Virus record (IMG/VR): IMGVR_UViG_2703718851_000003
Length of the DNA: 32,999 nucleotides
Reading direction: 5' to 3' (one strand)
Source of the DNA: a virus
Lineage: Duplodnaviria > Heunggongvirae > Uroviricota > Caudoviricetes
The notes under the pieces were generated by a model. The model did no database searches. It saw only the letters and a list, made by a program, of their open reading frames with translations, and was not told the DNA's origin. The position numbers were made by a program, and so were the translations under genes. This document shows positions 5,413-28,375 of this stretch, in pieces (positions within the stretch are counted from its first letter, which is position 1; the number at the start of each line of letters is the position of its first letter).

Positions 5413-6603
5413 TTAATTGCTGTTAACCGAGGTGACCAGATTTGCCAGGTATTTATCGGTAATACGCTGGCGCAGGGTCAGGTTTTCAAGAGGAGGCACC
5501 GGGGTATAGTCATAGTCGATATACAGTTTTCCGGCCTTGAGGGTTTCCGCATCATTGGATTCTTCGCTGAACCAGCAGGTCGCATCCACGATATAGCCGT
5601 TTGTTTTCAGCTCACGGAATTTGGCATTGATGCCGTCAACGATGTCGCGAATCAGCGTTGCAGTGATGGGCTTGTCCACCGCCCACATGTGCGCCTCAGC
5701 CATCGTGTCGGCCAGCACCTGCGCGGTGCGGGTGTAGTTTTCAAAGAGGAACAGCGGGTCATCGGAGCAGGTACGGTTACCCCAGAAGCGGAAACCGTCG
5801 CGGCGAATCAGCGTAGTGACGCCTGACTCGTTAAGCAGGTCAGCATCGGTGCCGGACTCCTGCAAATCCCAGAAGACGGATGCGCTGATGCCGGTAACAC
5901 CGTTCACCCCGACATTGGACAGCGTTTTATGCCAGCCCTGCTCCTGGTCGATTTTAGCGCGCAGACCCAGCGCACGGGCGGTGGCATACGCGGTGGCGGT
6001 GGTACTGGTGACCGTATCCCATGCGAGGAAATCCGGCCAGATGACCATCAGCTCACGCTGGCTGAAATTCTGGCGGTAGGCTTTCACCTCGGAAATGGTT
6101 TTACAGCCCCATGCGCTGATATACCCGAAAGCGCGCAGCTTCTGACAGACTGATGCCAGTGCAACAGCCACCTCTTTGGTGTCCAGTCCCGGCACGCCGA
6201 GAATACGCGGTTTAACACCGGTTACCGACTCTGCCGCCAGCAGGGCTTTCAGTCCGGTGTACTGACCGTTTTCGTCGGTGGTGCCGATGATATTGGAAAC
6301 GGTCTGCGCGAGTTTCGTTTCCTCGTCGTCACCGGTGCCGTCTTCCACACGCACGACAACGGTGACCGGTTTTGACTGGTCGGCGATGGCCTGTAACGAC
6401 GCCGCCAGCGTGCCTTTTTTACCGGCCTTTGCAATTGCGCTCTGCACATTGGTAATCAGCACCGGTTTATTGAGGGGGAAGGTTTCCGCATCCGCATCGC
6501 TGGCCGTGCAGACCATGCCGACAATGGCAGTGGATACGGTGGAAATGACGCGGGTGCCGTCGTTAATCTCCAGCACCTGCACGCCGTGATGATAGTCACT
6601 CAT
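5413..6603 (-). CDS. FI: Contractile tail sheath protein FI
   Basis: 396-aa ORF, first gene of the FI-FII-E-T-U-D block; length as P2 gpFI. Confidence 0.92.
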   Translation of the reverse strand: MSDYHHGVQVLEINDGTRVISTVSTAIVGMVCTASDADAETFPLNKPVLITNVQSAIAKAGKKGTLAASLQAIADQSKPVTVVVRVEDGTGDDEETKLAQTVSNIIGTTDENGQYTGLKALLAAESVTGVKPRILGVPGLDTKEVAVALASVCQKLRAFGYISAWGCKTISEVKAYRQNFSQRELMVIWPDFLAWDTVTSTTATAYATARALGLRAKIDQEQGWHKTLSNVGVNGVTGISASVFWDLQESGTDADLLNESGVTTLIRRDGFRFWGNRTCSDDPLFLFENYTRTAQVLADTMAEAHMWAVDKPITATLIRDIVDGINAKFRELKTNGYIVDATCWFSEESNDAETLKAGKLYIDYDYTPVPPLENLTLRQRITDKYLANLVTSVNSN

Positions 6604-6711
6604 CCGTTTAACTCCGTGGTTAATGGGTGAGTGGTATTTTCAGTTGTGCCGGAGATGTCAGGCTATTTGTCCCGGTTGGCTAATCGACAGCACAACCACC
6701 GGTAAAGAAAA

Positions 6712-6730
6712 GGCGGGCAATTTGCCCGCC
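6712..6730 (-). terminator. GC-rich hairpin followed by a T-run on the minus strand (intrinsic terminator candidate upstream of FI)
   Basis: Near-palindrome ggcgggcaatttgcccgcc; the minus strand continues TTTTCTTT. Lies between the Z/fun-locus gene and the FI start. Confidence 0.55.
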
Positions 6731-6929
6731 TGTCCTGATTTGTACTCACTCATTTTCCGACTGACAATTTACATAGCCCAAACGCTATCAAATCTGACAG
6801 TCTGCTTTGGGTAAACTGATAATGGGCAGAGCTTTGTATGGCTAACTTCAGCATGATACCTTACAGTCAAGCTGACAAAAGGCGGAATGATTATTCGTTG
6901 ATACACATCCTCCTGTAAGGAAACAAAGC

Positions 6930-7700
6930 ATGTATAAAGAACTTATAGAACAGAGACTGAATGAGGCAAAAGCCGCCAGAGCTGCGCTGAGCAAGACTAA
7001 TGGTGTAATTGTCGAAAAAACACATAACCCTGACCGCGGACTGTATCTCGTTAATTATGCCAATTTACTTATGAACAGGCAGATAGACATCTTCGATGAT
7101 GCGCTTCTCCTCCTCGAAAACGAACGATACCAAAGCGCTTGTATTGTTAGCCGAGGAATGATTGAAACTCATGCCTTCTCACGACTCTTAAACAAGAAAG
7201 TAGAGAAAATTTTGACTACCCAAAATGGCCACGCAAGTGTAGATAACGCTATCGAAGTTATATTGAACTTTACGAATAGTTCTCGATTTAAAAAGTCAGA
7301 GCAAGAAAAGATTCAGAAAGGAGTATTTGACCCGAACGACTACATGTTTACTGAGGAGGCTAAATATCGTTTTGAAAACCTACTTGCTGTCAGTATGCAT
7401 GTGATGACTGCTTTACGCGAACTCTATAAAGATGAGATGAAGCAGACTAATCAGATGGAAAGTGATTTTGAACTGACTTATGACATACTTAGCGAATATG
7501 TTCATCCTTCACAAACGAGCATCTACCACTACTACACACCTGAAACCCACTTAGTTCCTACTTCAGTTGGTAATATTCATGCTTATGTGCATGCTCAGCT
7601 ACAATGTGTGAGAGCGCTACTTTTCATATTAGAAGCAAAGAGTCAACATTATTGGTCTACACAGTTAGCAAATGAGATGACCAAACGAGCTAAAGAGTAA
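6930..7700 (+). CDS. AT-rich accessory protein of unknown function at the Z/fun locus (opposite strand to the tail genes)
   Basis: 256-aa ORF with AAGGA Shine-Dalgarno 8 nt before the ATG; visibly AT-rich; occupies the slot between FI and G where P2 carries the non-essential Z/fun gene. Homology to Fun itself cannot be confirmed from memory. Confidence 0.75.
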   Translation: MYKELIEQRLNEAKAARAALSKTNGVIVEKTHNPDRGLYLVNYANLLMNRQIDIFDDALLLLENERYQSACIVSRGMIETHAFSRLLNKKVEKILTTQNGHASVDNAIEVILNFTNSSRFKKSEQEKIQKGVFDPNDYMFTEEAKYRFENLLAVSMHVMTALRELYKDEMKQTNQMESDFELTYDILSEYVHPSQTSIYHYYTPETHLVPTSVGNIHAYVHAQLQCVRALLFILEAKSQHYWSTQLANEMTKRAKE

Positions 7701-7890
7701 GGCCTAAGCCCTGCAATGTGTTTATTTGAAAAATATTTCAATTTTTTCTTTGTATGCTGTAAATGACCTGAGCCCCTCTGACCAGAGAGCCTTGATGTTA
7801 TCAATGTCCGCTCTTGGCACAGAGCGGACTGTCAGATTAGGGGTTACTCTGTGTTATAGATATGTGAGCTCACACCAGAGTTTATACAGC

Positions 7891-8418
7891 TTATTGTGGC
7901 ATTTCCGGCCATTCAGGATTTGCAGGATCCACACGACTGACCAGAACGCTGTAGCGTTCCCATGACTCCAGTCGTGCGCGCTCCTCATCCGTCGCCATAT
8001 TCAGCCTGACGGCGCGTTCCAGCGGCTGAATAACGCTTTCCGCTTCGGAAAGTAACGCGGCCTTTTGTGATTCTGCCTGTTGTTGCTGTTCATCTGCCGT
8101 ATAAATCCGTTTAACCACAGCACCATCCTTAAACATCCATTTACCTGAGTCGTCAGCACGTCGATTGGAGGTAATATCAGGAACCTCAACAACGCTAAAA
8201 CCTTCAGGATTAAGCGTTGAAGCATCTCTGGTGATGGCGACAATAATATTATTTTCATCGTAAACAATCTTTATTGTGTCTGGCTGAAAGTTCTTCACTT
8301 CCTCATACCAGTTTTTTCCGTCTTCGGACCATAACCAGATAACATCAAAATTCTTTGTTAGCTGATATTGCTCTTTTGTTTTTGGATTACCTGACTTAAT
8401 GTTCTTTAAATGCTGCAT
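7891..8418 (-). CDS. G: Tail fiber assembly chaperone G
   Basis: 175-aa ORF immediately downstream of H; length as P2 gpG. Confidence 0.9.
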
Positions 8419-8421
8419 AAC

Positions 8422-10431
8422 TTATACCTGCGCAACGTTATACCATGTGCCATTGATGTACTTTTGTATCGGCCTGAAGATGGCTTCATCATCGCCATCT
8501 ACTTCACCAATGATTCTTAATCCGGTAATCGTGTGTCCGGCTTTTTCATAACGACCACCTCGCGCCATCAATTGAACAACTCGCGTACCCAGGCGAACAT
8601 CTTTCACATAGCGGGAATCAAAATTTCCCCAGTTGCTGGGTTGCATCTGACCGTTAACAGCAAATATTACCGAGTTATCTGTATTTCGCTGGCTATAGAA
8701 ATGCCATCCGGCCTCATCGCCTAACTCTGCAACCACTGGACGGGTGGAAGCACCCCATAAATTAAAGGTAATATTCTTCGTGGATGTGTTAGAGCTGGAT
8801 AGCGAGAACTTTTTACTATCCCCTGCCTGAATATTTTTAAAAGCAATAGCCACTCCATTCTGAAAACGGAATACTCGCTGACTGTTAGCATAAACATCAA
8901 GAATACCGTCTCCATTCTGTTTAAATCCGGTATCATTATCACCAAGAACAATTGAGCTACCACCTAGTGCATTCGTCGTACCAACTCCAAAACAGCCATT
9001 AATGACGGCATTAACAAGAATATTTAGTGCATCCCATTTCAACGTCATCAGGTCTTTTGTTGTGGTACTCTGGCGGCTTCTCCATTTGAAATATTCATTG
9101 CCGTTATCCCCCGTTTCAAACCACATGTATGAATCAGTGTCACCATCGGCATCATTTTTAAATCCAATCTTCGCCCAGTCAGTATTTCGAATCCAGGCAA
9201 GGATTGAGTCGTTTTCAAAAGTAAGTCCACCGGACAAGGTATCGCCATTTTTTTGCACGGCGTTCCCGGCTCGGTTTACCGTTTCCTGTAAACCGAGATA
9301 TTCGATAACGGCGGCAACGGTCGATTTAGCCAGAATATCCCGCCCGACTTTTGTCAGGGTCGCCAGGCTGGCAACATCATTCCCCGTAAAATACGGAAAC
9401 CTGTCTGCCGCAGTAGCAAGCCCCGCCAGCGCCGTCAAAGTGGCATCTTTCGGTTGCTTACCCGCAAGCGCATTAGTCATGGTGGTAGCAAAATTCGGGT
9501 CATTGCCCAGCGCCGCCGCCAGCTCGTTCAGCGTATTCAGTGCGTCAGGCGACGAGTCTACAAGGGCGGCAATCGCGGCCATAACGAAAGCCGTGTTTGC
9601 GATCTGAGTATTATTCGTTCCCTGTCGCGCAGTTGGCGTCGTTGGCGTTCCGGTCAGTGCAGGGCTGTTTAATGGCGCTTTCTTGTTCGTTTCATCCATT
9701 ACCGTCTTAACGGCTTTTGGTGTTGCGGCGAGCGTTTCAGACATGCTGTTGGTCGCACTACTTAGCTGGACAAGACCTTTTCGCGCTGTGGTAGCGTCCT
9801 GTGCGGTATATTTCCCGTTAGCAAGGTCATATGCGGCCTTAACCGCTTTCGGCGTTGCGGCCAGTGTTTCAGACGTGCTGTTGGTCGCATTGCTTAACTG
9901 AGTAAAACCTTTTGCGGTCAGCGAGGCGTCCGGGTGACGTCGTGACTGTTCATGCTCTGCAATTTTGTCATCAACGTAATCCTGCGTCGCCATCACCGTT
10001 GTGGTGTCAATGGTCAGCTCCACTGAGGCCACACTGCTGACGATGATGACCATGCGACAGGTCTGCGAACGCCCTGAGCCTTCGGCAAGAGCTGGCTTAT
10101 AACTTTCGGCCATGTTCGCCACGGCAATTAATGTTCCCGCATCATCGTACAGGCCAAGCTCACGCATCCAGAAACCGCCCACCTCCGGCGGAATAACCAG
10201 CTCTGCGATAATATAATTACTGTTTCGTTTGTCCTGGCTGATTTTGTTCAGCGCATGTCGCCAGACTTCATGGATAAGCCCGGTCTGTCCGGCATCCGGG
10301 ACAGGCAATTTACCACCGCCATCCCCGACGGCCATCGTGGTAATGTTGACCTTCCGCCCTCCCGGCGCGGTTGCCGCTGCCAGCTTTGCTGCACCGGCAG
10401 TGGTGATAACGGTTTTAAATTTCGTGCTCAT
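8422..10431 (-). CDS. H: Tail fiber protein H
   Basis: 669-aa ORF; repeated SETLAATPKAVK motif; length as P2 gpH. Confidence 0.92.
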   Translation of the reverse strand: MSTKFKTVITTAGAAKLAAATAPGGRKVNITTMAVGDGGGKLPVPDAGQTGLIHEVWRHALNKISQDKRNSNYIIAELVIPPEVGGFWMRELGLYDDAGTLIAVANMAESYKPALAEGSGRSQTCRMVIIVSSVASVELTIDTTTVMATQDYVDDKIAEHEQSRRHPDASLTAKGFTQLSNATNSTSETLAATPKAVKAAYDLANGKYTAQDATTARKGLVQLSSATNSMSETLAATPKAVKTVMDETNKKAPLNSPALTGTPTTPTARQGTNNTQIANTAFVMAAIAALVDSSPDALNTLNELAAALGNDPNFATTMTNALAGKQPKDATLTALAGLATAADRFPYFTGNDVASLATLTKVGRDILAKSTVAAVIEYLGLQETVNRAGNAVQKNGDTLSGGLTFENDSILAWIRNTDWAKIGFKNDADGDTDSYMWFETGDNGNEYFKWRSRQSTTTKDLMTLKWDALNILVNAVINGCFGVGTTNALGGSSIVLGDNDTGFKQNGDGILDVYANSQRVFRFQNGVAIAFKNIQAGDSKKFSLSSSNTSTKNITFNLWGASTRPVVAELGDEAGWHFYSQRNTDNSVIFAVNGQMQPSNWGNFDSRYVKDVRLGTRVVQLMARGGRYEKAGHTITGLRIIGEVDGDDEAIFRPIQKYINGTWYNVAQV
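9706..9900 (-). repeat. Imperfect direct repeat of about 63 bp, two copies about 130 bp apart, inside the H tail fiber gene
   Basis: Copy 1 about 9706..9768 and copy 2 about 9838..9900; they encode the duplicated ...SETLAATPKAVK... segments of H. Confidence 0.8.
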
Positions 10432-11877: not shown

Positions 11878-12225
11878 TCAACTCACAGGGATGGTTAACG
11901 AAAGTGGCTGGCCGGTGTCGTTGTGCAGGCCGGTTAACGTGACCGTCATTCGCCCGTCAAAACTGCGCGCCGTGGTGACGGATGACAGGGTGACGCGGGG
12001 TTCCCATTTCAGCACTGCCATGTAACAGGCGACTTTAATCTGCAACTCAAGCGCCGGGGTCTGCGGCTGGTCAATCATTGACGCCAGCAACGAGCCGTAA
12101 TCACGACGCATCACCCGTGAGCCGACCGGTGTGCGCAGGATATCGCCGATACTCTGGCTGATATGCTCAAGGTCAGTGACAGTCAGGCCATCACTGCGAT
12201 TCATTCCGAGATAACGCGCTGTCAT
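11878..12225 (-). CDS. W: Baseplate protein W
   Basis: 115-aa ORF; length as P2 gpW. Confidence 0.9.
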   Translation of the reverse strand: MTARYLGMNRSDGLTVTDLEHISQSIGDILRTPVGSRVMRRDYGSLLASMIDQPQTPALELQIKVACYMAVLKWEPRVTLSSVTTARSFDGRMTVTLTGLHNDTGQPLSLTIPVS

Positions 12226-12857
12226 AGAGGTCCCCCTGTTGTGCCGCCACTGTCGCCGGGGTGTTTATGGGTATGCAGTACCTTACCGTTTGATGAGAGT
12301 TCACCGCCGGTGTGTTCAATGTTGCCGCGCATCGTCCCGCCCTTCTGCACTTCCAGCGTGCCGGTAATCAGCCTGTTGGTGCAGACCACCTCCGGTGTGT
12401 CCAGGGTGACGCGGGTTGATGCTTTCACCATGACCACCGGCACCGTGGCAGTAACAGAATCAGAAGCCGTCACGCTGGCCGTTTTAATTCCGCTTACCGT
12501 AAGTGCACTGGTTTCGGGTTCATACTCAATCACCGCCCCGTCAGGGAAACGGATATGCAGGGCATCCGCCGACGCAGACGGCGCGGGGTTATCGCCGGAA
12601 TAAATCCCCGGCAGAACGAATGCCGTGTCGAGTTCACCGCCCACGGACAGAATCAGCACCTGTTCTCCCACGGAAGGTGCCCACCATGTGCGCGAACGAC
12701 CGGCGCGATGGGTCAGCCACTGAAGCCAGTCGGTGCACATGCCGCCGGTCTGCACGCGGCAGCGACCGGCGTTAAGGTCGGTTTCGACGATAATGCCGGT
12801 GCGAATCATGTTGCGCAGTGCGCGCGCGAGTTCCTGAATATTTGCGAGAGTGTTCAT
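12222..12857 (-). CDS. V: Baseplate spike protein V
   Basis: Track ORF begins with a TTG at 12875; the first ATG at 12857 gives 211 aa (MNTLANIQELARAL...), the P2 gpV length; ATGA overlap with the W start. Confidence 0.88.
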   Translation of the reverse strand: MNTLANIQELARALRNMIRTGIIVETDLNAGRCRVQTGGMCTDWLQWLTHRAGRSRTWWAPSVGEQVLILSVGGELDTAFVLPGIYSGDNPAPSASADALHIRFPDGAVIEYEPETSALTVSGIKTASVTASDSVTATVPVVMVKASTRVTLDTPEVVCTNRLITGTLEVQKGGTMRGNIEHTGGELSSNGKVLHTHKHPGDSGGTTGGPL

Positions 12858-12940
12858 GCATGTGAGATTGCACAATATATAAAAGTTATGCTATCTGGAT
12901 TCATTTGTAGAACTACCAGACAACATTCAAGGAGAGCGTA

Positions 12941-13726
12941 ATGGTCAGCTATAATGTGACTAATGTGTGGGGGCTAATCGTTTTTTTCCTTTGTAGCTTT
13001 GCAGTATTAGCATTTTTTAGCTTTGGTAAAAGCAACCTTATGAGGCTTATTGCACATTATTTCAATTTTGGATATTCAGACAAAAAATTAAAAAGACTTG
13101 ACCGCGAGTGGCGCGACATTCAACTATTTAAAATAATTAACGGAATCAATGTATCAGGCATTGAAAATGTGAGAATGATACAGCAGGGACTGATTGATGG
13201 AAAACTAAAAACATCGTATTTTTTCCTTACTCGCATCTGGGGTGACACAACAAAACCACCACACATAATTAAAACAATAATTGTAATTCTGACCAGTATT
13301 TTTTACATTCTCCTCGCATGTTACATACACAACAAACAATCCGTTATAGTAAGGGATGCCATAGGCATACCATATAAAAACATGATGTACTATGTTTATA
13401 GTGACAAAGTTCTTTTATCCTTCAAAAATAAAGCAGTTGAATTTAATAAAACTTATAGCCTTGCCGATTGCAAGAAACTGCAAAACGTATTTATAAAAGA
13501 CACACTTCCTGAGATCGCCTGCAATAAGCTCTTACAGCTAAACGAGGAGGACTCCGAATGGTTAAGCCAGGAGATTAAAGATAATAACAGTCACAAAAAA
13601 GCATTATTAATACTATCCCTCGTCTATTTCACTTCAGGTCTGGTTATATTCCTGTCATATACAAAATTCTTTTACGCCAATAAGAAGGTTTTAGAATACA
13701 AAGCATCAAATAAAAATCACTCATAA
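12941..13726 (+). CDS. AT-rich predicted membrane protein (three hydrophobic segments) at the orf30 locus
   Basis: 261-aa ORF with a strong AAGGAG Shine-Dalgarno 7 nt before the ATG; hydrophobic stretches VWGLIVFFLCSFAVLAFFSF, IIKTIIVILTSIFYILLACYI, ALLILSLVYFTSGLVIFLSY; opposite strand to the flanking V and S genes. Confidence 0.8.
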   Translation: MVSYNVTNVWGLIVFFLCSFAVLAFFSFGKSNLMRLIAHYFNFGYSDKKLKRLDREWRDIQLFKIINGINVSGIENVRMIQQGLIDGKLKTSYFFLTRIWGDTTKPPHIIKTIIVILTSIFYILLACYIHNKQSVIVRDAIGIPYKNMMYYVYSDKVLLSFKNKAVEFNKTYSLADCKKLQNVFIKDTLPEIACNKLLQLNEEDSEWLSQEIKDNNSHKKALLILSLVYFTSGLVIFLSYTKFFYANKKVLEYKASNKNHS

Positions 13727-13732
13727 ACCTCT

Positions 13733-13767
13733 AAACATTGAGCGACCAGCATGGCCGCTCAATGTTT
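13733..13767. terminator. 12-bp perfect-stem hairpin between convergent genes (orf30-locus gene and S)
   Basis: aaacattgagcg - 11-nt loop - cgctcaatgttt; sits between the plus-strand stop at 13726 and the minus-strand S stop at 13798. No long U-run on either side, so terminator function is inferred. Confidence 0.55.
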
Positions 13768-13797
13768 AATTGCGCATCAGCCTCTGCCTGGATAAAA

Positions 13798-14250
13798 CTA
13801 ACGCTCAAGGTGAGCCAGGATAATCTCTTCAATCATCTGCACATCCTCACCGGTAAAGCCGAGCAGAGGACGCGCCGGATAATCAATTTTCTTACCGTCT
13901 TTCCGGTTTTCTTCCGACAGACCGAACTGATGCACACTGGCGATTTTCGGTGACTTCCCGCCGTAAAATTCCATTGATGCCTGCTCCGGGCTGGCGCGGA
14001 TATGCAAAAAACGACTGGTGATAAGTTTCGCAAACATTTTTCGCTTAACACGACCGGTCTTTTTTCTGGCGCTCTGCTGCTGGCGTGGCGCGTAGGGTGT
14101 GCCGTCCGGGGCTTTCTGTGCCATCACCCGACGCTGCTGACTCTGCCGCAGGCGCTTCGCCAGTTCGGCACTCAGTCGCCGACGCCCTGACGGTGACAGC
14201 GATTCAATCAGCCCGGTCAGCCGGTCTTCAAAACGCTTAAACTCATTCAT
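13798..14250 (-). CDS. S: Tail completion protein S
   Basis: 150-aa ORF; length and order as P2 gpS. Confidence 0.88.
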   Translation of the reverse strand: MNEFKRFEDRLTGLIESLSPSGRRRLSAELAKRLRQSQQRRVMAQKAPDGTPYAPRQQQSARKKTGRVKRKMFAKLITSRFLHIRASPEQASMEFYGGKSPKIASVHQFGLSEENRKDGKKIDYPARPLLGFTGEDVQMIEEIILAHLER

Positions 14251-23681: not shown

Positions 23682-24119
23682 ATGTCCAAAAACCTCGAAT
23701 TATTTAACCAGCAGACGGCTGAAATCTTTGCGGTGCTATGGGATAACTTTCCTGTACCACAAGTCATCACCTACAAAAAATTTAACGCCGCGTTACCTGA
23801 TGACTACTTTGACCAACTTAACTCACCGGAAATGAAAGCACTGAATCAGTTGCGTAGTGTGGTTGATGGCACATTCACTTTCCTAAGCGAAAACGGCTAT
23901 ATTCTGTACGGAACAGACCATCAGACCGGTTTTCATGATGTGCGCCTGACCGAGAAAGCACTCGCGGTGCTCAACAAAAAACCCGAAGCACTTGGCGGTA
24001 ATGAAACGATGGGAGATAAAATTATCAGTGCAGTAAAAGACGGGACTCCAGGTGTCATTGCTGGAGCAGTGACAAACCTGTTGACTCTTGGTGTTAATTT
24101 TGTGACGTCAGCTTCATAG
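23682..24119 (+). CDS. Hypothetical 145-aa protein with a C-terminal hydrophobic tail (accessory cargo)
   Basis: ATG start with AAGGG Shine-Dalgarno 8 nt upstream; no recognisable motif; C-terminus GTPGVIAGAVTNLLTLGVNFV is hydrophobic; convergent with the RT gene. Confidence 0.6.
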   Translation: MSKNLELFNQQTAEIFAVLWDNFPVPQVITYKKFNAALPDDYFDQLNSPEMKALNQLRSVVDGTFTFLSENGYILYGTDHQTGFHDVRLTEKALAVLNKKPEALGGNETMGDKIISAVKDGTPGVIAGAVTNLLTLGVNFVTSAS

Positions 24120-24243: not shown

Positions 24244-25194
24244 TTAATTTGCAGTATTAGCCTTTAAAGTAAGCACCTTAGATTTGTAACGTTGCTCAAT
24301 CACTCCCATTGAATGCAAACGACCAAAGAGCTTTTTGGCAATGATTGTTTCTCTCGCATTTTCGGCGTCTTTAATTATTTTCCAATAATCTATTTCCCTA
24401 GCCATCAAAAAATGCTGCTCATTCCTAACTTTTAATGCATTGCCTAATACAATAACTCCAGTTACCAACTTAGGCTTATCTCTGGCATATAGTTTTGTTT
24501 TCGTTGGGTGTATAACATGCCCATGCTTATTAACGATCTTACGAATTACAGCGCAGAACAATCGATTTACGTTACTACCTGAAAAAGTGAGATCATCAAC
24601 ATAAACAGTCATGTTAACTCGTAACTTTTGGCAAAGTTGATATATTTCACCAAACATTCTTGAATTTGCAAAATATGCCAACGGCATACTGATGCGACTA
24701 CCTGTTGGCAATCGGTCATGACAAGTACATATGTGGGACAAAACATCAGCAACATCAGATGACATTTTCATCACCGAAAAGAAAAAAGAAAATATCATCC
24801 CTCTTGTAGTTGATGGAAAAAAAGCTTTAATATCTGTTGTCATCATCTTTTCATTATTAAGATGAGCTTTAGCATTCGTCACATTAGAGCACTTCTTCTT
24901 CCCTGAGTGCAGATATTCTGGCAAAGCAATCCGCGATAACAAACTTGCAATTCGTGTATGTACAAGTTCTAGTTTTTCTAAAGGCTTTTGTATTTTTCGT
25001 GCTTTCCCTTTTTTAGAAAGCTGCTCAAAAACGGAATAGTTTCCTTCATCTTTTCTCAAAGAGTATAAATCATCAAGACTAACACAAAGCAAATTCGCCA
25101 GTTTTCTTTTACTTTTGAGTTTATAAAATGGCGAATCCATTATGTCATAAGATTTATTTTTAGTATTAACTTTAAGCTTTTTCCGTTTTTTCAT
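24244..25194 (-). CDS. Reverse transcriptase, short retron-like type (no C-terminal effector domain)
   Basis: 316-aa ORF with RT motifs in canonical order: NAKAHLNN, DIKAFFPS (motif A), LPTGSRISMPLAYF (motif B), YVDD (motif C), then KLVTGVIV (the VTG triplet typical of retron RTs). Pattern resembles the Ec86 retron RT as I recall it. Confidence 0.85.
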   Translation of the reverse strand: MKKRKKLKVNTKNKSYDIMDSPFYKLKSKRKLANLLCVSLDDLYSLRKDEGNYSVFEQLSKKGKARKIQKPLEKLELVHTRIASLLSRIALPEYLHSGKKKCSNVTNAKAHLNNEKMMTTDIKAFFPSTTRGMIFSFFFSVMKMSSDVADVLSHICTCHDRLPTGSRISMPLAYFANSRMFGEIYQLCQKLRVNMTVYVDDLTFSGSNVNRLFCAVIRKIVNKHGHVIHPTKTKLYARDKPKLVTGVIVLGNALKVRNEQHFLMAREIDYWKIIKDAENARETIIAKKLFGRLHSMGVIEQRYKSKVLTLKANTAN

Positions 25195-25492
25195 TTTTAT
25201 TACTTACCCACTCCAGAACATCCAGAACTTTACCGGCTAAATTTAAACGCAATCGCTTAGACAAACGGCCTTGCGTGCCTAATGATTCCGAAAAGAATAC
25301 TAAAGAGGATACTGGTATGTCGAAATGGGAGGCGTAACGCTCTAAGACTTCAATCGACGGTGACCAAACTCCGCTTTCAAGCGATACTATTTTGTCTTTT
25401 GGAATACCTAAAGATGAAGATAACTCAACTATTGATTCTTTATGGTATTGCCTTATTAAACGAAGGGCTTTATGTAACATAGGCAACTCCAT
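25172..25492 (-). CDS. Xre/Cro-type helix-turn-helix protein, overlapping the RT start (start may be the ATG at 25480, GGAG ribosome-binding site)
   Basis: 106-aa ORF; HTH segment ...ESIVELSSSLGIPKDKIVSLESG...; 23-nt overlap with the RT ORF suggests translational coupling. Confidence 0.75.
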   Translation of the reverse strand: MELPMLHKALRLIRQYHKESIVELSSSLGIPKDKIVSLESGVWSPSIEVLERYASHFDIPVSSLVFFSESLGTQGRLSKRLRLNLAGKVLDVLEWVSNKNEKTEKA

Positions 25493-25516: not shown

Positions 25517-25672
25517 TTACTCATCACCCCCTTCGAAGTAGTCCAGTGCTCGAGTAACTAAATCAAACAGTCTAATACCCCATTTGATTAATTTCCAAGC
25601 GTAACCAGCCCACTTTTTCAGGTTTGACTTGTTCTGCGCCTGCTGTTCGTTGGTTAATTTATCATTCTTCAT
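25517..25672 (-). CDS. 51-aa small protein (MKNDKLTNEQQAQNKSNLKKWAGYAWKLIKWGIRLFDLVTRALDYFEGGDE), first ORF of the RT operon
   Basis: Internal ATG of track ORF 25517..25909 preceded by a strong AAGGAG Shine-Dalgarno at 6-nt spacing; the Shine-Dalgarno is embedded in the 3' arm of a hairpin. Confidence 0.5.
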   Translation of the reverse strand: MKNDKLTNEQQAQNKSNLKKWAGYAWKLIKWGIRLFDLVTRALDYFEGGDE

Positions 25673-25980
25673 GATTTGCTCCTTATGCCCATAGTGTGCA
25701 AACGGTATGTCTGCTCCAACACTATGGTTCGCCCTCATAAGGATGAGATTGAACAGCACTAGCCCCCTGCTCCACGAACCCTTGGTCGCCCAAAGGGTTC
25801 GAATACCCATACGCCATACCTCCTGATCCTGTGACTCCTGTCGCTGGCAGGGGCGTTGCGCGGGGTAAGTGTTAGAAAGCGTTAACTTTCCACGGGTAAA
25901 AATACCCAATTGATGGCGATATATCTCACTAACTAACCAATGTTTGCATCATAACAAGTAAACCGTTGTATTTGCTCCCC
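25673..25980 (-). ncRNA. Candidate structured non-coding RNA / leader of the RT operon (possible retron msr-msd-like or DRT-type template RNA)
   Basis: Series of stem-loops on the minus strand: GGGTA-TTTT-TACCC, GAAAG-TTAACG-CTTTC, an 8-bp stem at 25776..25800, and a composite 7+8-bp hairpin at 25681..25742. 12-bp inverted repeat GGTTTACTTGTT (25964..25953) / AACAAGTCAAACC (25633..25621). No protein-coding potential seen. Confidence 0.35.
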
Positions 25981-26080: not shown

Positions 26081-28375
26081 TTACATGAAAAATGACACTT
26101 CATCTTGAAATCCGAACCACTCATTAGTAACCATATACGTGAATTTTTTCCCGTCATAATTTACGGTTGCCCCACGCGCCAGCGCCTCAATCTCCCATCG
26201 CTGAGGCCTGATACCGTTCTGAGCAAGGTCAACGCGGATACGGGTAATTTGCATTCGTTCCGACCGGGTCAGTCTGGCCGATGGCGCTATTTCATGTGGT
26301 TTTAACGGGCTTCCGTTTCTTTGCTGGCGATTTGGTCTTCTCAGTCCGTGTTTTAATGCACCCCTGAGCGCCCTCACAACCTCCGGGTCATTCCATTCGA
26401 TAACACCGTCATCTACCAGATTAAGCACTGCTGCGGCGTGTTCAGAAGGTGTGGGAGCCGGTAACGAAGCATCACTGCTGGCAGGCTTTCCACAGTTATT
26501 GACAGGACTCCGAGGCGCGGCGATGCCGCTTTTTAAAGTCAAAGGCTCAACGACCGGCACTTTCGGCACAATGCGCCAGTCCGTGGTTCTGGTGATATGA
26601 ATATGACGCGCGCCGAGATGCGGCGCGTAAATGCCGACCACTCTCTCGACTTCTTCCTCGTACTCGTTAACGTCATCCGACGGGCTACGGGCGACCCTGA
26701 CAGTCTGACAATCGCGCGGAACATTTGCCCCACCCTGCGCGCTGATATACAACGCAAAATCACCACTGTCTGCGGCGGCGCGTGCAGCCTCGACGCGCTC
26801 GTCAAACTCATCAGCAATGCTGACGCCGCGAGGCAATTTGCGTAGTTCACGGTAAGCCCCCATTGTCGGCAGGCCAACCGTTTTAAATTGCGGGATGCGC
26901 CACGTTGACGCCCATGCGGTAACAGCCGCCGCTGTGTCTTTCAGCGGCCTGCCGGTATCGTTATCGAGCTGACCATCCAGTGCATAGCCGTCGATGTTTT
27001 TTGAGATGTATTTCGCGATATACCCCGCAGCACCGCCCCGGTTAAGGTGTTTCGCCTGAAAACGGTTTCGCGCGGCTCCTCTTTCGTCGCCATCCTCTTT
27101 GAGCGCGTAGCGACGCATGATTTCGATAATCTGGTTACGCTGGCGCGGATTACAAAAAAGCATCATATGCCAGTGCGGCGTTCCGTCGTGGTGTGGCTCG
27201 ACGACACGCAAACCGTAGACCTGTAAATCATTATCCTTGAATGCCGTGCGCATCAGGCTCCAGATACGGCAGAGATAACGCTGCGCATCCTTTGGATTAA
27301 ATGCCTCATCGTTCCAGCCGTGATTAAGCTGCACGGTTTTACTTTCGCCTTTTCCGACCTGACGTGTCGGGTGATACTTTGACGGCGCGGTCAGCGTGAT
27401 AAACATCCCCACATCACCCTCTGCGGCGGCGTAACGCTCAATACCGGCAATGGTGTTCATCAGCTCCATCCGGCGAATTTCAGGATTAGAAATACTGCCC
27501 ATCACCTTACTGATAAGGTCGATGCGCTCGCCGGTTTCCCTGTTTTCGAGGTCACACGATTTAAGAAATTCCAGATTTGCCTGGCGGCGCGCACGCACAT
27601 CACGAATGGCATGTTTACTGGCATAAGGAGAACGGTCTTTATTGACCTCCCCGACAGCTATCAGTAACGCCTCATGCCAGCGCATACGCTGGCCTTTAAG
27701 CTGATGAGTCCACCACTCATCGTTAAACAGGCGGGCAATGGCAGAATATGCCTGCCTCGTGGTCATCTGTCCTTTACGGTATTTTTTCCAGTAGAGAGGG
27801 GAAATATTGAAAGCACGTGCAGCGCCAGCAACATGACCATACAGGTGAGCCTGCGCCTCATCCGTAAACAGCGATTCTTTTTCGCCATGCGCATCCACCC
27901 AGGCATCGCTGAGTTCCTCATACATCATGAAAAGCTGCGATGAGATACGGGCGGCAAACTTTTTCAGCTCCTTGTCATTCATTCCCGGCAGGCGCGCATA
28001 GTGGTCACGCTCTGCCAGAAACAGCAACGACGCGTCGGTGTTCATTTCATGGCGCTGATTCACACGCTCAATGCGCGGCCATAAACGACGCTGAAAAGTG
28101 GATGTGAGGAAATAAAACCCGTGCACCGGGCTTTTATTGCGCCGGATGTAGTCATAGCGTGAAGTAAACAGCGAGCGCAAAAAGTAAGGCAGGCGGTTAA
28201 TCGTGGATAAAACACCTTGCACCTGACGCATCTCGTCACGTGTAAGGGGTCTTTCGCGCCCGACGGCCTCGCGTGGCGCGTTCCATGCATAAGCACCGGT
28301 AAACGCCTTACCGGTGCCTGCAGCAAATGCTGACGGAGGTACGCAGGTGTATTGCTCCTGGAAAGAATGACTCAT
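26081..28375 (-). CDS. A: Rolling-circle replication initiator A
   Basis: 764-aa ORF (P2 gpA is about 761 aa as I recall); last gene of the early operon; ATGA overlap with the upstream PP-loop gene. Confidence 0.9.
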   Translation of the reverse strand: MSHSFQEQYTCVPPSAFAAGTGKAFTGAYAWNAPREAVGRERPLTRDEMRQVQGVLSTINRLPYFLRSLFTSRYDYIRRNKSPVHGFYFLTSTFQRRLWPRIERVNQRHEMNTDASLLFLAERDHYARLPGMNDKELKKFAARISSQLFMMYEELSDAWVDAHGEKESLFTDEAQAHLYGHVAGAARAFNISPLYWKKYRKGQMTTRQAYSAIARLFNDEWWTHQLKGQRMRWHEALLIAVGEVNKDRSPYASKHAIRDVRARRQANLEFLKSCDLENRETGERIDLISKVMGSISNPEIRRMELMNTIAGIERYAAAEGDVGMFITLTAPSKYHPTRQVGKGESKTVQLNHGWNDEAFNPKDAQRYLCRIWSLMRTAFKDNDLQVYGLRVVEPHHDGTPHWHMMLFCNPRQRNQIIEIMRRYALKEDGDERGAARNRFQAKHLNRGGAAGYIAKYISKNIDGYALDGQLDNDTGRPLKDTAAAVTAWASTWRIPQFKTVGLPTMGAYRELRKLPRGVSIADEFDERVEAARAAADSGDFALYISAQGGANVPRDCQTVRVARSPSDDVNEYEEEVERVVGIYAPHLGARHIHITRTTDWRIVPKVPVVEPLTLKSGIAAPRSPVNNCGKPASSDASLPAPTPSEHAAAVLNLVDDGVIEWNDPEVVRALRGALKHGLRRPNRQQRNGSPLKPHEIAPSARLTRSERMQITRIRVDLAQNGIRPQRWEIEALARGATVNYDGKKFTYMVTNEWFGFQDEVSFFM

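What the first reader, a model, noticed from the sequence alone, without database searches (positions are those of the whole stretch)
12876..13797. AT-rich three-helix membrane protein on the opposite strand at the orf30 locus between V and S
Seen in sequence: a 261-aa ORF with a strong AAGGAG ribosome-binding site, three hydrophobic segments consistent with transmembrane helices, a Lys/Asn-rich composition, followed by a 12-bp perfect-stem hairpin (13733..13767) shared with the convergent S gene. Inference: a second accessory gene inserted inside the late region; candidate for membrane-level exclusion of superinfecting phage or lysogenic conversion.
Basis: inference. Interest (0 to 1): 0.5.

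Follow-up and report, generated by a model that had tools for sequence, protein, structure and literature searches.

The report
Phage P2 orf30 membrane protein gene
This is the long-annotated but never explained orf30 gene of phage P2, a fast-evolving three-helix inner-membrane protein that sits in a cargo slot between two tail genes where related prophages carry anti-phage defence genes, so it probably protects the lysogen against other phages, though nobody has tested this.

Summary
Window 12941..13726 (+) is a 261-aa ORF with an AAGGAG ribosome-binding site, three hydrophobic helices, 34% GC against 57-60% in the flanks, and a stable hairpin shared with the convergent gene S.

It is not a new gene. 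It is phage P2 orf30, 98% identical in protein and annotated "nonessential" since 1998. Its function is still unknown.

- Orf30 belongs to a family of about 40 clusters at 50% identity. Members are 250-270 aa and 17-37% identical to it.
- Nearly every member whose context could be read lies between tail genes V and S of P2-like prophages of Enterobacterales, on the opposite strand.
- The S-V junction is a cargo hotspot. About 53 of 73 species-level loci are occupied, some by recognisable defence genes (PARIS, Septu, RelA/SpoT, TIR, SIR2, GmrSD, HigBA).
- The protein evolves fast (dN/dS 0.44, against 0.04 for S and 0.15 for V), but both soluble loops are constrained.
- The predicted topology is N-terminus out and C-terminus in, with a conserved cytoplasmic domain and a periplasmic domain carrying two conserved cysteines.
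- A confident AlphaFold model has no fold match.

The best guess is an inner-membrane exclusion protein analogous to P22 SieA but not homologous to it. Expression and phenotype are untested.

The parts
12941..13726 (+). orf30 coding sequence, 261 aa. Predicted three-pass inner-membrane protein: TM1 at about 9-29, cytoplasmic loop 30-107, TM2 at about 108-131, periplasmic loop 132-219 with conserved C177 and C194, TM3 at about 220-240, and a Lys-rich cytoplasmic tail.
   Evidence: ORF. 98.1% identical to P2 Orf30, AAD03281. Full-length match to phrog_2407, E = 1.9e-147. Hydropathy and charge bias. AlphaFold pLDDT 86.2. dN/dS 0.44, with no stops or indels in 21 haplotypes.
12929..12934 (+). Shine-Dalgarno sequence AAGGAG, 6 nt upstream of the ATG.
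   Evidence: Read directly from the sequence. A similar motif is conserved upstream of most distant homologues.
12899..12926 (-). Ogr activator binding site of the late promoter pV. It is placed here by its position in the P2 record. It lies directly against the orf30 ribosome-binding site, so any orf30 promoter must overlap the pV control region.
   Evidence: P2 annotation 10239..10266 transferred by the fixed offset between L001 and the window. The CACAAC half-site is conserved 10-50 nt upstream of Orf30-family start codons in other genera.
12853..12881 (+). Weak candidate promoter for orf30, TTCATG-17-TATATA. It overlaps the V start codon and the AT-rich -10 region of pV. This is a hypothesis only.
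   Evidence: Position-weight scan, score 5.5, weak. The consensus scan found no + strand promoter upstream of the gene.
13732..13768 (.). Bidirectional terminator-like hairpin between the convergent genes orf30 and S.
   Evidence: Perfect 12-bp stem. 17-nt arms at 94% complementarity. Folding z-scores of -5.0 and -4.6. Annotated in P2 as the putative terminator of the O operon.
12858..13797 (.). The whole AT-rich cargo module that fills the S-V junction, 940 nt. In relatives with an empty junction, about 66 nt of unrelated GC-rich sequence takes its place.
   Evidence: Composition. Junction lengths of 70, 944, 1043 and 1267 nt in 80 IMG/VR loci. Junction sequences. No flanking direct repeats.
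12222..12857 (-). Gene V (baseplate spike), the left flank of the junction.
   Evidence: P2 annotation. ORF.
13798..14250 (-). Gene S (tail completion), the right flank of the junction, convergent with orf30.
   Evidence: P2 annotation. ORF.

Best explanation
orf30 encodes a three-pass inner-membrane protein that the P2 prophage makes for the benefit of the lysogen. It most likely acts at the cytoplasmic membrane to stop other phages, probably by interfering with genome entry in the way superinfection-exclusion proteins do.

Shown or directly computed:
- It is a real, translated-looking gene whose loops are under purifying selection.
- It is an accessory module.
- It belongs to a hypervariable family tied to the S-V junction of P2-like prophages.
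- That junction carries defence genes in other prophages.
- The predicted topology is N-terminus out and C-terminus in.
  - The cytoplasmic domain of about 80 residues is the most conserved part of the family.
  - The periplasmic domain of about 90 residues is a beta-meander plus helices, with two nearly invariant cysteines.

Inferred:
- The cysteines form a periplasmic disulfide.
- The gene is expressed in the lysogen and shut off when Ogr activates pV across its 5' end.
- The variable periplasmic and transmembrane parts meet the incoming phage's ejection apparatus, while the conserved cytoplasmic domain binds a constant partner.
For: Real gene under selection:
- It is intact in 461 of 464 E. 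coli genomes that carry it.
- There are no stops or indels in 21 haplotypes.
- dN/dS is 0.30 in loop 1, and 0.30 and 0.10 in the two halves of loop 2.
- The Shine-Dalgarno sequence is conserved.

Accessory module in a hotspot:
- In 80 E. coli-type IMG/VR loci the junction is empty in 54, holds orf30 in 23, and holds other cargo in 3.
- In complete E. coli genomes there are 482 orf30 places against 1803 gpS places, about 27%.
- In 73 loci from different species about 53 are occupied by 0.6-4.1 kb of AT-rich cargo.
- That cargo includes AriA, PtuA, mad3, HEC-01A, NsnC, methyltransferases, RelA_SpoT, GmrSD_N, a TIR domain, SIR2, a caspase domain and HigB/HTH pairs.
- Orf30 relatives are the largest single cargo family there, 8 of 53.

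Positional conservation at low identity:
- Homologues only 17-37% identical occupy the same place and strand.
- They are found in Serratia, Yersinia, Rahnella, Buttiauxella, Enterobacter and Pseudescherichia.

Fast divergence of the kind seen in conflict genes:
- dN/dS is 0.44 at a dS equal to that of the flanks.
- Median cross-genus identity is 27%, against 69% for V and 61% for S.
- Two Serratia prophages with V 95% and S 91% identical have Orf30 proteins only 46% identical.

Retention in decayed elements:
- An intact homologue sits in a Serratia rubidaea remnant that keeps only Ogr, V and a fragment of S.
- Another sits beside an integrase fragment.
- This points to a benefit for the host rather than a role in the lytic cycle.

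Topology, mean K+R versus D+E:
- N-terminus 0.4 versus 1.2.
- Loop 1 14.3 versus 8.2.
- Loop 2 12.0 versus 12.2.
- C-tail 4.3 versus 2.3.

Other points:
- C177 and C194 are at least 90% conserved.
- P22 SieA is a proven precedent with the same outline: three predicted membrane helices, inner-membrane location, sequence types below 30% identity, and a conserved cytoplasmic motif (bioRxiv 10.1101/2023.08.15.553423).
- sieA also lies on the opposite strand at the end of virion genes.
Against: - No experiment or phenotype was found in the searchable literature.
- From my own knowledge, not checked here: the classical exclusion phenotypes of P2 lysogens are assigned to old, tin and Z/fun, and P2 vir mutants plate on P2 lysogens. 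This argues against strong exclusion of P2 itself.
- No sigma-70-like promoter lies upstream, and a 34% GC gene may be silenced by H-NS.
- There is no hit in PADLOC or Pfam.
- There is no homology to SieA.
- There is no fold match that would indicate a mechanism.
- Sharing a hotspot with defence genes is association only. The same slot also holds methyltransferases, toxin-antitoxin pairs and many unknowns.
- dN/dS of about 1 or more in TM1 and TM3 may simply reflect loose constraint on lipid-facing residues.
- NG86 estimates are approximate at this skewed composition.
Confidence: 0.4

Rival explanations
1. Abortive-infection effector. Orf30 sits quietly in the inner membrane. When an infecting phage is sensed through its conserved cytoplasmic domain, it oligomerises or opens and collapses membrane integrity. 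The cell dies before the phage completes its cycle.
For: - Many neighbouring cargoes in the same slot are abortive-infection-type systems: PARIS AriA, Septu PtuA, TIR, SIR2, caspase and RelA/SpoT.
- The most conserved part of the family is cytoplasmic, residues 58-101, which would suit a sensor.
- The model has a long helix, 202-258, running through TM3.
Against: - There are no charged residues inside the membrane helices.
- No partner gene is present in most loci.
- There is no PADLOC match.
- Two conserved cysteines in the non-cytoplasmic loop suggest that the periplasmic side matters.
Confidence: 0.17
2. Lysogenic conversion unrelated to phages. Orf30 is an envelope protein that changes host physiology in a way that favours the lysogen, for example stress tolerance, envelope permeability or colonisation.
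For: - It is a membrane protein with a structured periplasmic domain.
- It is retained intact in prophage remnants.
- It is present in about 8.6% of complete E. coli genomes from many sources.
- Other membrane proteins of unknown function share the slot: 8xMP, DUF6232 and several unannotated two- to five-helix proteins.
Against: - The family is almost confined to P2-like elements and to one position in them. There are no plasmid copies, and among phage isolates only the P2 group carries it.
- Divergence is extreme between otherwise near-identical prophages, 46% against 91-95%. That looks more like antagonistic coevolution than a housekeeping-type host function.
- There are no enzyme-like invariant residues.
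Confidence: 0.15
3. An accessory function in the phage's own cycle. Candidates are tuning of lysis timing, preventing progeny from injecting into lysing or already infected cells, or interfering with the satellite P4.
For: - It is embedded in the late region next to the lysis and tail genes.
- It is always adjacent to the spike gene V.
- Its 5' end abuts the Ogr site of pV, so it could be regulated with the late switch.
Against: - It is annotated nonessential in P2.
- About 70% of close P2 relatives lack it altogether and have an empty junction.
- It is on the strand opposite to every late operon and has no Ogr-type promoter of its own.
- It survives in remnants that can no longer make phage.
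- Pfam holin and spanin models do not match.
Confidence: 0.1
4. Cargo without a current function: a neutral hitch-hiker kept only because it also brings the terminator of the O operon and the pV promoter region.
For: - No promoter was found.
- dN/dS of 0.44 is high.
- In P2 the module supplies the S terminator and the pV control region, so deleting it could be costly.
Against: - Loop regions have dN/dS of 0.10-0.30.
- There are no frameshifts or stops in 21 haplotypes, and 461 of 464 genomic copies are full length.
- Family members at 17-37% identity keep their length, three helices, two cysteines and motifs.
- AlphaFold confidence rose from 52 to 86 when the diverse alignment was used. This shows coherent coevolution of a fold.
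Confidence: 0.05

Closest known systems
Bacteriophage P2 Orf30 (AAD03281, AF063097 9439..10224; PHROG phrog_2407, 'unknown function')
   Same: It is the same gene. Identity is 98.6% in DNA and 98.1% in protein. The position between V and S, the opposite strand, the terminator hairpin and the adjacent Ogr site of pV all match.
   Different: There are five amino-acid differences. The window's phage is closer to P2_AC1 (99.4%). It carries a type VI retron where P2 has old/tin.
P22 SieA superinfection-exclusion protein
   Same: - It has three predicted membrane helices.
- It is an inner-membrane protein encoded on the opposite strand at the edge of virion genes.
- It exists as sequence types below 30% identity in related phages, with a conserved cytoplasmic motif.
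- It is a single-gene system.
   Different: - There is no detectable homology: hhalign probability 0.3%.
- SieA is 162-164 aa with short loops. Orf30 is 261 aa with two folded loops of 80-90 residues.
- SieA has an annotated promoter and a proven DNA-injection block. Orf30 has neither.
HK97 gp15 moron (superinfection exclusion at the inner membrane)
   Same: It is an accessory gene inserted among tail genes of a temperate phage. It is predicted to be an inner-membrane protein and blocks genome entry of related phages. This description comes from the SieA preprint and my own knowledge of Cumby et al. 2012.
   Different: The phage type is different (a siphovirus). No sequence relationship is seen: the only PHROG match of Orf30 is phrog_2407. 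I did not compare the gp15 sequence directly.
P2 old, tin and Z/fun (the other AT-rich nonessential exclusion genes of P2)
   Same: They are horizontally acquired, AT-rich, nonessential cargo at fixed variable slots of P2-like genomes (PMC3091744, PMC9122126). In this window the equivalent slots are also AT-rich.
   Different: Their anti-phage phenotypes are established and the proteins are not three-pass membrane proteins. Recent hotspot surveys do not resolve the S-V slot. They describe the gpA-gpQ and Z/fun slots, or lump the tail region as 'downstream of GpL'.

Membership tests
P2 Orf30 / phrog_2407 | Full-length sequence similarity to P2 Orf30 | tested here: met
   98.1% amino-acid identity over 261 residues. 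phrog_2407 E = 1.9e-147 over residues 1-261.
P2 Orf30 / phrog_2407 | Location between tail genes V and S, on the opposite strand, followed by the O-operon terminator | tested here: met
   Matches the P2 annotation. The same arrangement holds for homologues in other genera.
P22 SieA-type superinfection exclusion proteins | Sequence or profile homology to SieA | tested here: not met
   hhalign of the 42-sequence family profile against P22 SieA gave probability 0.3%, with 4 aligned columns.
P22 SieA-type superinfection exclusion proteins | Integral inner-membrane protein with about three membrane helices | tested here: inconclusive
   Three helices are predicted in 37 of 42 members, and the charge bias fits N-out/C-in. 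The AlphaFold helices agree. Localisation itself cannot be tested here.
P22 SieA-type superinfection exclusion proteins | Blocks DNA injection by superinfecting phage and is expressed from the prophage | not testable with these tools
   This needs plating, potassium-efflux or DNA-entry assays, and transcript mapping. No promoter consensus was found.
Known anti-phage defence systems (PADLOC-DB v2.0.0) | Match to a model of a described defence protein | tested here: not met
   0 families at E up to 10.
Any curated protein domain family (Pfam-A), including holins and spanins | Match to a Pfam model | tested here: not met
   0 families at E up to 10. PDB sequence search gave a best E of 0.35.
Any solved or predicted viral fold | Structural similarity of a confident model | tested here: not met
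Moron (autonomous accessory cassette in a late operon) | Compositionally foreign insert with its own terminator and promoter, absent from close relatives | tested here: inconclusive
   Foreign composition, terminator and absence from relatives are met. An own promoter was not found.

The most novel reading that the evidence does not exclude
The Orf30 family is a previously unrecognised, structurally novel class of hypervariable inner-membrane exclusion proteins specific to P2-like phages. A conserved cytoplasmic domain would anchor it to a constant partner. A disulfide-stabilised periplasmic domain and variable membrane helices would set which incoming phages, or which ejection machineries, are blocked. 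The S-V junction would then be a third distinct defence hotspot of P2-like phages, one that current surveys do not resolve.
Probability: 0.35. Interest if true: 0.55.

Novelty: already known. Interest (0 to 1): 0.36.

Why it matters
orf30 is the last of the classical nonessential, horizontally acquired genes of the model phage P2 without an assigned function. old, tin and Z/fun all turned out to be phage-exclusion genes.

This analysis shows that orf30 is not a one-off insertion. It represents the commonest cargo family of a variable slot between tail genes S and V that also carries recognisable defence systems. About 27% of P2-type prophages in E. coli carry it, which is about 8.6% of complete genomes.

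If it excludes phages, it would add a membrane-level mechanism with a new fold. It would also give defence-hotspot surveys a third P2 slot to mine, and it would affect phage host-range predictions for E. coli.

If it does nothing detectable, it remains an ordinary hypothetical prophage gene.

Tried and rejected
- **AlphaFold on the five close homologues.** This gave a poor model, pLDDT 51.7. It became useful only after the exhaustive HMMER search supplied distant homologues.
- **Word-indexed homologue search.** It found only 4 close clusters at first. Even with profiles it returned only 14, so the apparent orphan status was an artefact of search sensitivity.
- **The search for related loci with the family alignment.** I used a gpS alignment instead.
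- **afdb50 fold library.** It was unavailable.
- **Pfam, PADLOC and PDB-sequence searches.** All were negative.
- **Homology to P22 SieA.** Rejected.
- **Lipoprotein or cleavable signal peptide.**
  - The N-terminus has no positive charge.
  - The only early cysteine, C18, lacks a lipobox context and is not conserved among alleles.
- **Insertion scars.** There are no flanking direct repeats or target duplication.
- **Rfam.** The only hits are sub-threshold matches to the hairpin itself.
- **Promoter search.** The consensus scan found nothing upstream on the + strand. A weight-matrix scan gave only weak candidates in P2. Extended -10-like motifs (TGnTACAAT, TGnTAATAT) appeared by eye in two Serratia homologues.
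- **My first ORF script.** It gave mirrored coordinates for minus-strand ORFs. It was corrected and rerun.
- **Literature.** The Christie & Calendar P2 review and the Casjens & Grose paper are not held, nor is the 2026 H-NS preprint. No paper assigning a function to orf30 was found.
Full report
**What is there**

Window 12941..13726 (+) is an ATG-initiated ORF of 261 codons.
- AAGGAG lies 6 nt upstream.
- GC content drops to 0.33-0.36 across the gene, from 0.56-0.61 on both sides.
- Kyte-Doolittle analysis gives three strongly hydrophobic 19-residue windows at 9-27, 109-127 and 221-239.
- The protein is rich in Leu, Lys, Ile and Asn.
- Seven bases after the stop codon a perfect 12-bp stem (13733-13767) forms a hairpin. 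It is far more stable than shuffled sequence on both strands, z about -5.
- The gene lies between baseplate-spike gene V (12222..12857, -) and tail-completion gene S (13798..14250, -), on the opposite strand.

**Identity**

The 1.5-kb stretch is 98.6% identical to bacteriophage P2 and 99.4% identical to phage P2_AC1.
- In the P2 record the ORF is 'orf30, Orf30, nonessential'.
- The hairpin is the 'putative rho-independent terminator for O operon'.
- The 28 bp just upstream of the orf30 ribosome-binding site is the activator (Ogr) binding site of late promoter pV.

So the finding is P2 orf30 itself, not something at the orf30 locus. The literature I could search lists Orf30 as 'unknown' and names orf30 as one of three regions of P2 thought to be horizontally acquired, along with the TO region and Z/fun (PMC3091744; PMC6823313).

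Recent defence-hotspot papers do not resolve the S-V slot.
- They treat the gpA-gpQ slot and Z/fun (PMC9122126; bioRxiv 10.1101/2024.10.15.618418).
- Or they lump the tail region as 'downstream of GpL' (PMC13586616).
- No paper assigning a function was found.

**Database matches of the protein**

Pfam gave 0 families, PADLOC gave 0, and PHROGs gave only phrog_2407 ('unknown function'). The PDB sequence search found nothing below E = 0.35.

**The family is larger than it first looked**

The word-indexed search found only four clusters of at least 79% identity. An exhaustive HMMER search of 1.84 billion representatives found 42 clusters at 50% identity, about 25 of them full length at 250-271 aa. 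In alignment they are 17-37% identical to P2 Orf30.
- C194 and I212 are invariant in the 42-sequence alignment A6.
- Q61, G68, D76, G87, C177 and L208 are conserved in at least 90% of its sequences.

**Genomic context**

Homologues from Serratia nevei and S. ureilytica lie between V and S on the opposite strand of complete P2-like prophages. So do P0006 and P0033.

An unbiased sample of the junction, fetched with a gpS alignment from one genome per species, gave 73 loci where both S and V could be placed.
- About 20 are empty, with 23-124 nt and GC 0.48-0.65.
- About 53 hold 0.6-4.1 kb of AT-rich cargo, GC 0.30-0.49.
- Orf30 relatives are the largest cargo family, present in 8 loci, always antisense to S and V.
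- Those 8 come from Rahnella, Yersinia, Buttiauxella, Pseudescherichia, Enterobacter and unnamed Enterobacteriaceae.

Two contexts are remnants.
- In Serratia rubidaea an intact homologue is flanked only by Ogr, V and a 49-aa fragment of S, among chromosomal genes.
- P0017 lies beside a fragment that reads like the C-terminus of a tyrosine integrase, next to a GNAT acetyltransferase gene.

No copy is on a plasmid in PLSDB. Among sequenced phage isolates only the P2 group carries it.

**The slot is a cargo hotspot with defence content**

In 80 E. coli-type IMG/VR loci the S-V distance takes four values.

| S-V distance | Content | Loci |
|---|---|---|
| 70 nt | empty | 54 |
| 944 nt | orf30 | 23 |
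| 1043 nt | other cargo | 2 |
| 1267 nt | other cargo | 1 |

- In the empty form the whole intergenic sequence differs from that of P2.
- No flanking repeats mark the orf30 module.
- In complete E. coli genomes orf30 occurs at 482 places in 464 of 5426 genomes, all chromosomal.
- P2-type gpS occurs at 1803 places, so about 27% of junctions carry orf30.

Of 87 cargo ORFs of at least 100 aa from the cross-species sample:
- PADLOC recognises AriA (PARIS), PtuA (Septu), mad3, HEC-01A, NsnC, methyltransferases and PDC-S33.
- Pfam recognises RelA_SpoT, AAA_21, SMC_N, GmrSD_N, a CAP12/Pycsar TIR domain, SIR2_2, Peptidase_C14, HigB with HTH partners, ORF6N, an ion-channel domain and the membrane family 8xMP.
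- 35 of the 87 have at least one predicted membrane helix.

**Evolution**

Values below come from 21 E. coli haplotypes of the S-orf30-V block.

| Gene | dS | dN/dS |
|---|---|---|
| orf30 | 0.13 | 0.44 |
| S | 0.11 | 0.04 |
| V | 0.09 | 0.15 |

There are no stops or indels. Within E. coli the gene has therefore diverged alongside its neighbours, but much faster at the protein level.

dN/dS by region:

| Region | dN/dS |
|---|---|
| N-terminus plus TM1 | 1.18 |
| Loop 1 | 0.30 |
| TM2 | 0.52 |
| First part of loop 2 | 0.30 |
| Second part of loop 2 | 0.10 |
| TM3 | 2.1 (few sites, low dS) |
| C-tail | 0.33 |

Both soluble loops are under purifying selection.

Across genera the median identity is 27% for Orf30, against 69% for V and 61% for S. 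Two Serratia prophages with V 95% and S 91% identical have Orf30 proteins only 46% identical. Across the family the cytoplasmic stretch 58-101 is the most conserved. The membrane helices and the beta-region 132-173 are the most variable. NG86 estimates at this composition are approximate.

**Topology and structure**

37 of 42 members show exactly three hydrophobic segments.

| Segment | Mean K+R | Mean D+E |
|---|---|---|
| N-terminus | 0.4 | 1.2 |
| Loop 1 | 14.3 | 8.2 |
| Loop 2 | 12.0 | 12.2 |
| C-tail | 4.3 | 2.3 |

By the positive-inside rule this puts the N-terminus and loop 2 outside, and loop 1 and the tail inside. The two nearly invariant cysteines both lie in loop 2, which fits a periplasmic disulfide. 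That is an inference; I could not measure the distance in the model.

AlphaFold with the 43-sequence alignment gave pLDDT 86.2 and pTM 0.77, against 51.7 with five close sequences. The model contains:
- TM1 at 7-28.
- A small helical cytoplasmic domain: 30-40, 48-67, 74-86 and 91-94.
- TM2 at 109-133.
- A four-strand beta-meander: 141-173.
- Two short helices: 174-179 and 189-198.
- One long helix at 202-258 that contains TM3.

No library gave a specific match.
- BFVD: best E 0.07.
- PDB Foldseek: best E 0.05, TM at most 0.21.
- The AlphaFold-database library was not available.

There are no enzyme-like invariant residues.

**Expression**

This is the weak point.
- The 83 bp between the V start codon (12857) and the orf30 ATG contains the pV promoter and its Ogr site.
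- A conserved CACAAC half-site lies 10-50 nt upstream of Orf30-family start codons in other genera.
- The cargo is therefore always inserted just beyond the pV control region, and any orf30 promoter must overlap it.
- The consensus scan finds no + strand promoter upstream.
- A weight-matrix scan gives only weak candidates in P2, such as TTCATG-17-TATATA at 12853-12881. This overlaps the V start and the AT-rich -10 region of pV.
- Two Serratia homologues show extended -10-like motifs by eye.

A plausible but untested arrangement is a weak promoter active in the lysogen that is occluded when Ogr recruits RNA polymerase to pV. The hairpin would stop both orf30 and the O operon.

**Mechanism**

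The evidence fits a prophage-borne protein that benefits the host and is engaged in some conflict.
- It is accessory cargo, and it sits in a slot shared with defence systems.
- It is hypervariable between near-identical prophages, yet its loops are constrained.
- It is retained in prophage remnants.
- It has no enzymatic signature, and it has structured domains on both faces of the inner membrane.

The closest working precedent is P22 SieA.
- It is an inner-membrane protein with three predicted helices.
- It blocks DNA injection.
- It occurs as types below 30% identical, with a conserved cytoplasmic motif.
- It is encoded on the opposite strand at the end of virion genes.

Orf30 is not homologous to it: hhalign probability 0.3%. 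I therefore rank the explanations as follows.

| Explanation | Confidence |
|---|---|
| Inner-membrane exclusion that blocks genome entry | about 0.4 |
| Abortive-infection membrane effector | 0.17 |
| Conversion function unrelated to phages | 0.15 |
| Accessory role in the phage's own cycle | 0.1 |
| No current function | 0.05 |

From my own knowledge, P2 vir plates on P2 lysogens, and the known exclusion phenotypes of P2 lysogens are explained by old, tin and Z/fun. Any Orf30 target is therefore probably not P2 itself or the classical test phages.

**Verdict**

The object is already known: it is P2 orf30. The new content of this analysis is:
- the extent of the family;
- its fixed position in P2-like prophages;
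- its evolutionary rate;
- the predicted topology;
- the novelty of the fold;
- the defence content of the S-V slot.

Noticed in passing
window 24244-25492 (- strand): The AT-rich slot next to replication gene A (26081-28375) is where P2 carries old/tin. Here it holds a type VI retron-like pair: a reverse transcriptase matching PADLOC RT_VI (E = 4e-105) and a 106-aa protein matching HTH_VI (E = 8e-31). Two further unannotated ORFs lie at 25517-25909 and 23682-24119.
   Followed up: partly
window 6930-7700 (+ strand): A second opposite-strand ORF of 256 aa lies in an AT-rich island (GC 0.38-0.45 over 6600-9000) at the Z/fun position. It matches Pfam DUF5677 (E = 1e-9) and no PADLOC model.
   Followed up: partly
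L009, L015, L045, L066 (S-V junction, about 6450-6520 in each locus): Relatives with an empty junction have a 66-nt intergenic region unrelated to that of P2. It contains a TGTGCC...GGCACA inverted repeat and a GC-rich hairpin (GCCGCCGG-N6-CCGGCGGC) directly before the V start codon. The pV control region therefore differs between the empty and the orf30-carrying forms.
   Followed up: partly
L083 6001-6801 versus L084 6001-6804: Two Serratia P2-like prophages have V 95% and S 91% identical, but their Orf30 homologues are only 46% identical. In both, the 3' end of the homologue overlaps the 3' end of the convergent gene S by 23-29 nt.
   Followed up: partly
L085 4486-7021 (Serratia rubidaea chromosome): A prophage remnant consists of Ogr, V, an intact 253-aa Orf30 homologue and a 49-aa fragment of S, flanked by ordinary chromosomal genes.
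   Followed up: no
L168 682-1767 (also L169, L170): An Orf30-family gene (P0017, 258 aa) lies outside any recognisable P2 context. It sits directly after two short ORFs that read like the C-terminal end of a tyrosine integrase, and it is convergent with a high-GC GNAT acetyltransferase gene.
   Followed up: partly
L171 3965-5816 (also L172): Here the Orf30 homologue (271 aa) is the last of three same-strand genes in the S-V slot. It is preceded by a 180-aa ORF and a 133-aa DUF7480 protein, so it may form an operon.
   Followed up: no
L078 6557-7726; L026 and L033 6451-7495: Other E. coli cargo occupies the same slot.
- L078 holds a 389-aa protein with two C-terminal hydrophobic helices and no Pfam or PADLOC match.
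- L026 and L033 hold a 1043-nt AT-rich insert whose longest ORF is only 126 aa, so it may be a decayed gene.
   Followed up: partly
L113 5537-7009 and L142 5470-6291: In two loci the Orf30 homologue shares the slot with a second gene on the other strand. One is a 490-aa caspase-domain protein (Peptidase_C14, E = 3e-15). The other is an unannotated 273-aa protein with two predicted membrane helices.
   Followed up: partly
L105 5481-6146 and L116 6352-7017: Members of the Pfam 'octameric membrane protein' family 8xMP (E = 2e-39), with four predicted helices, are another recurrent membrane cargo of the S-V slot.
   Followed up: no
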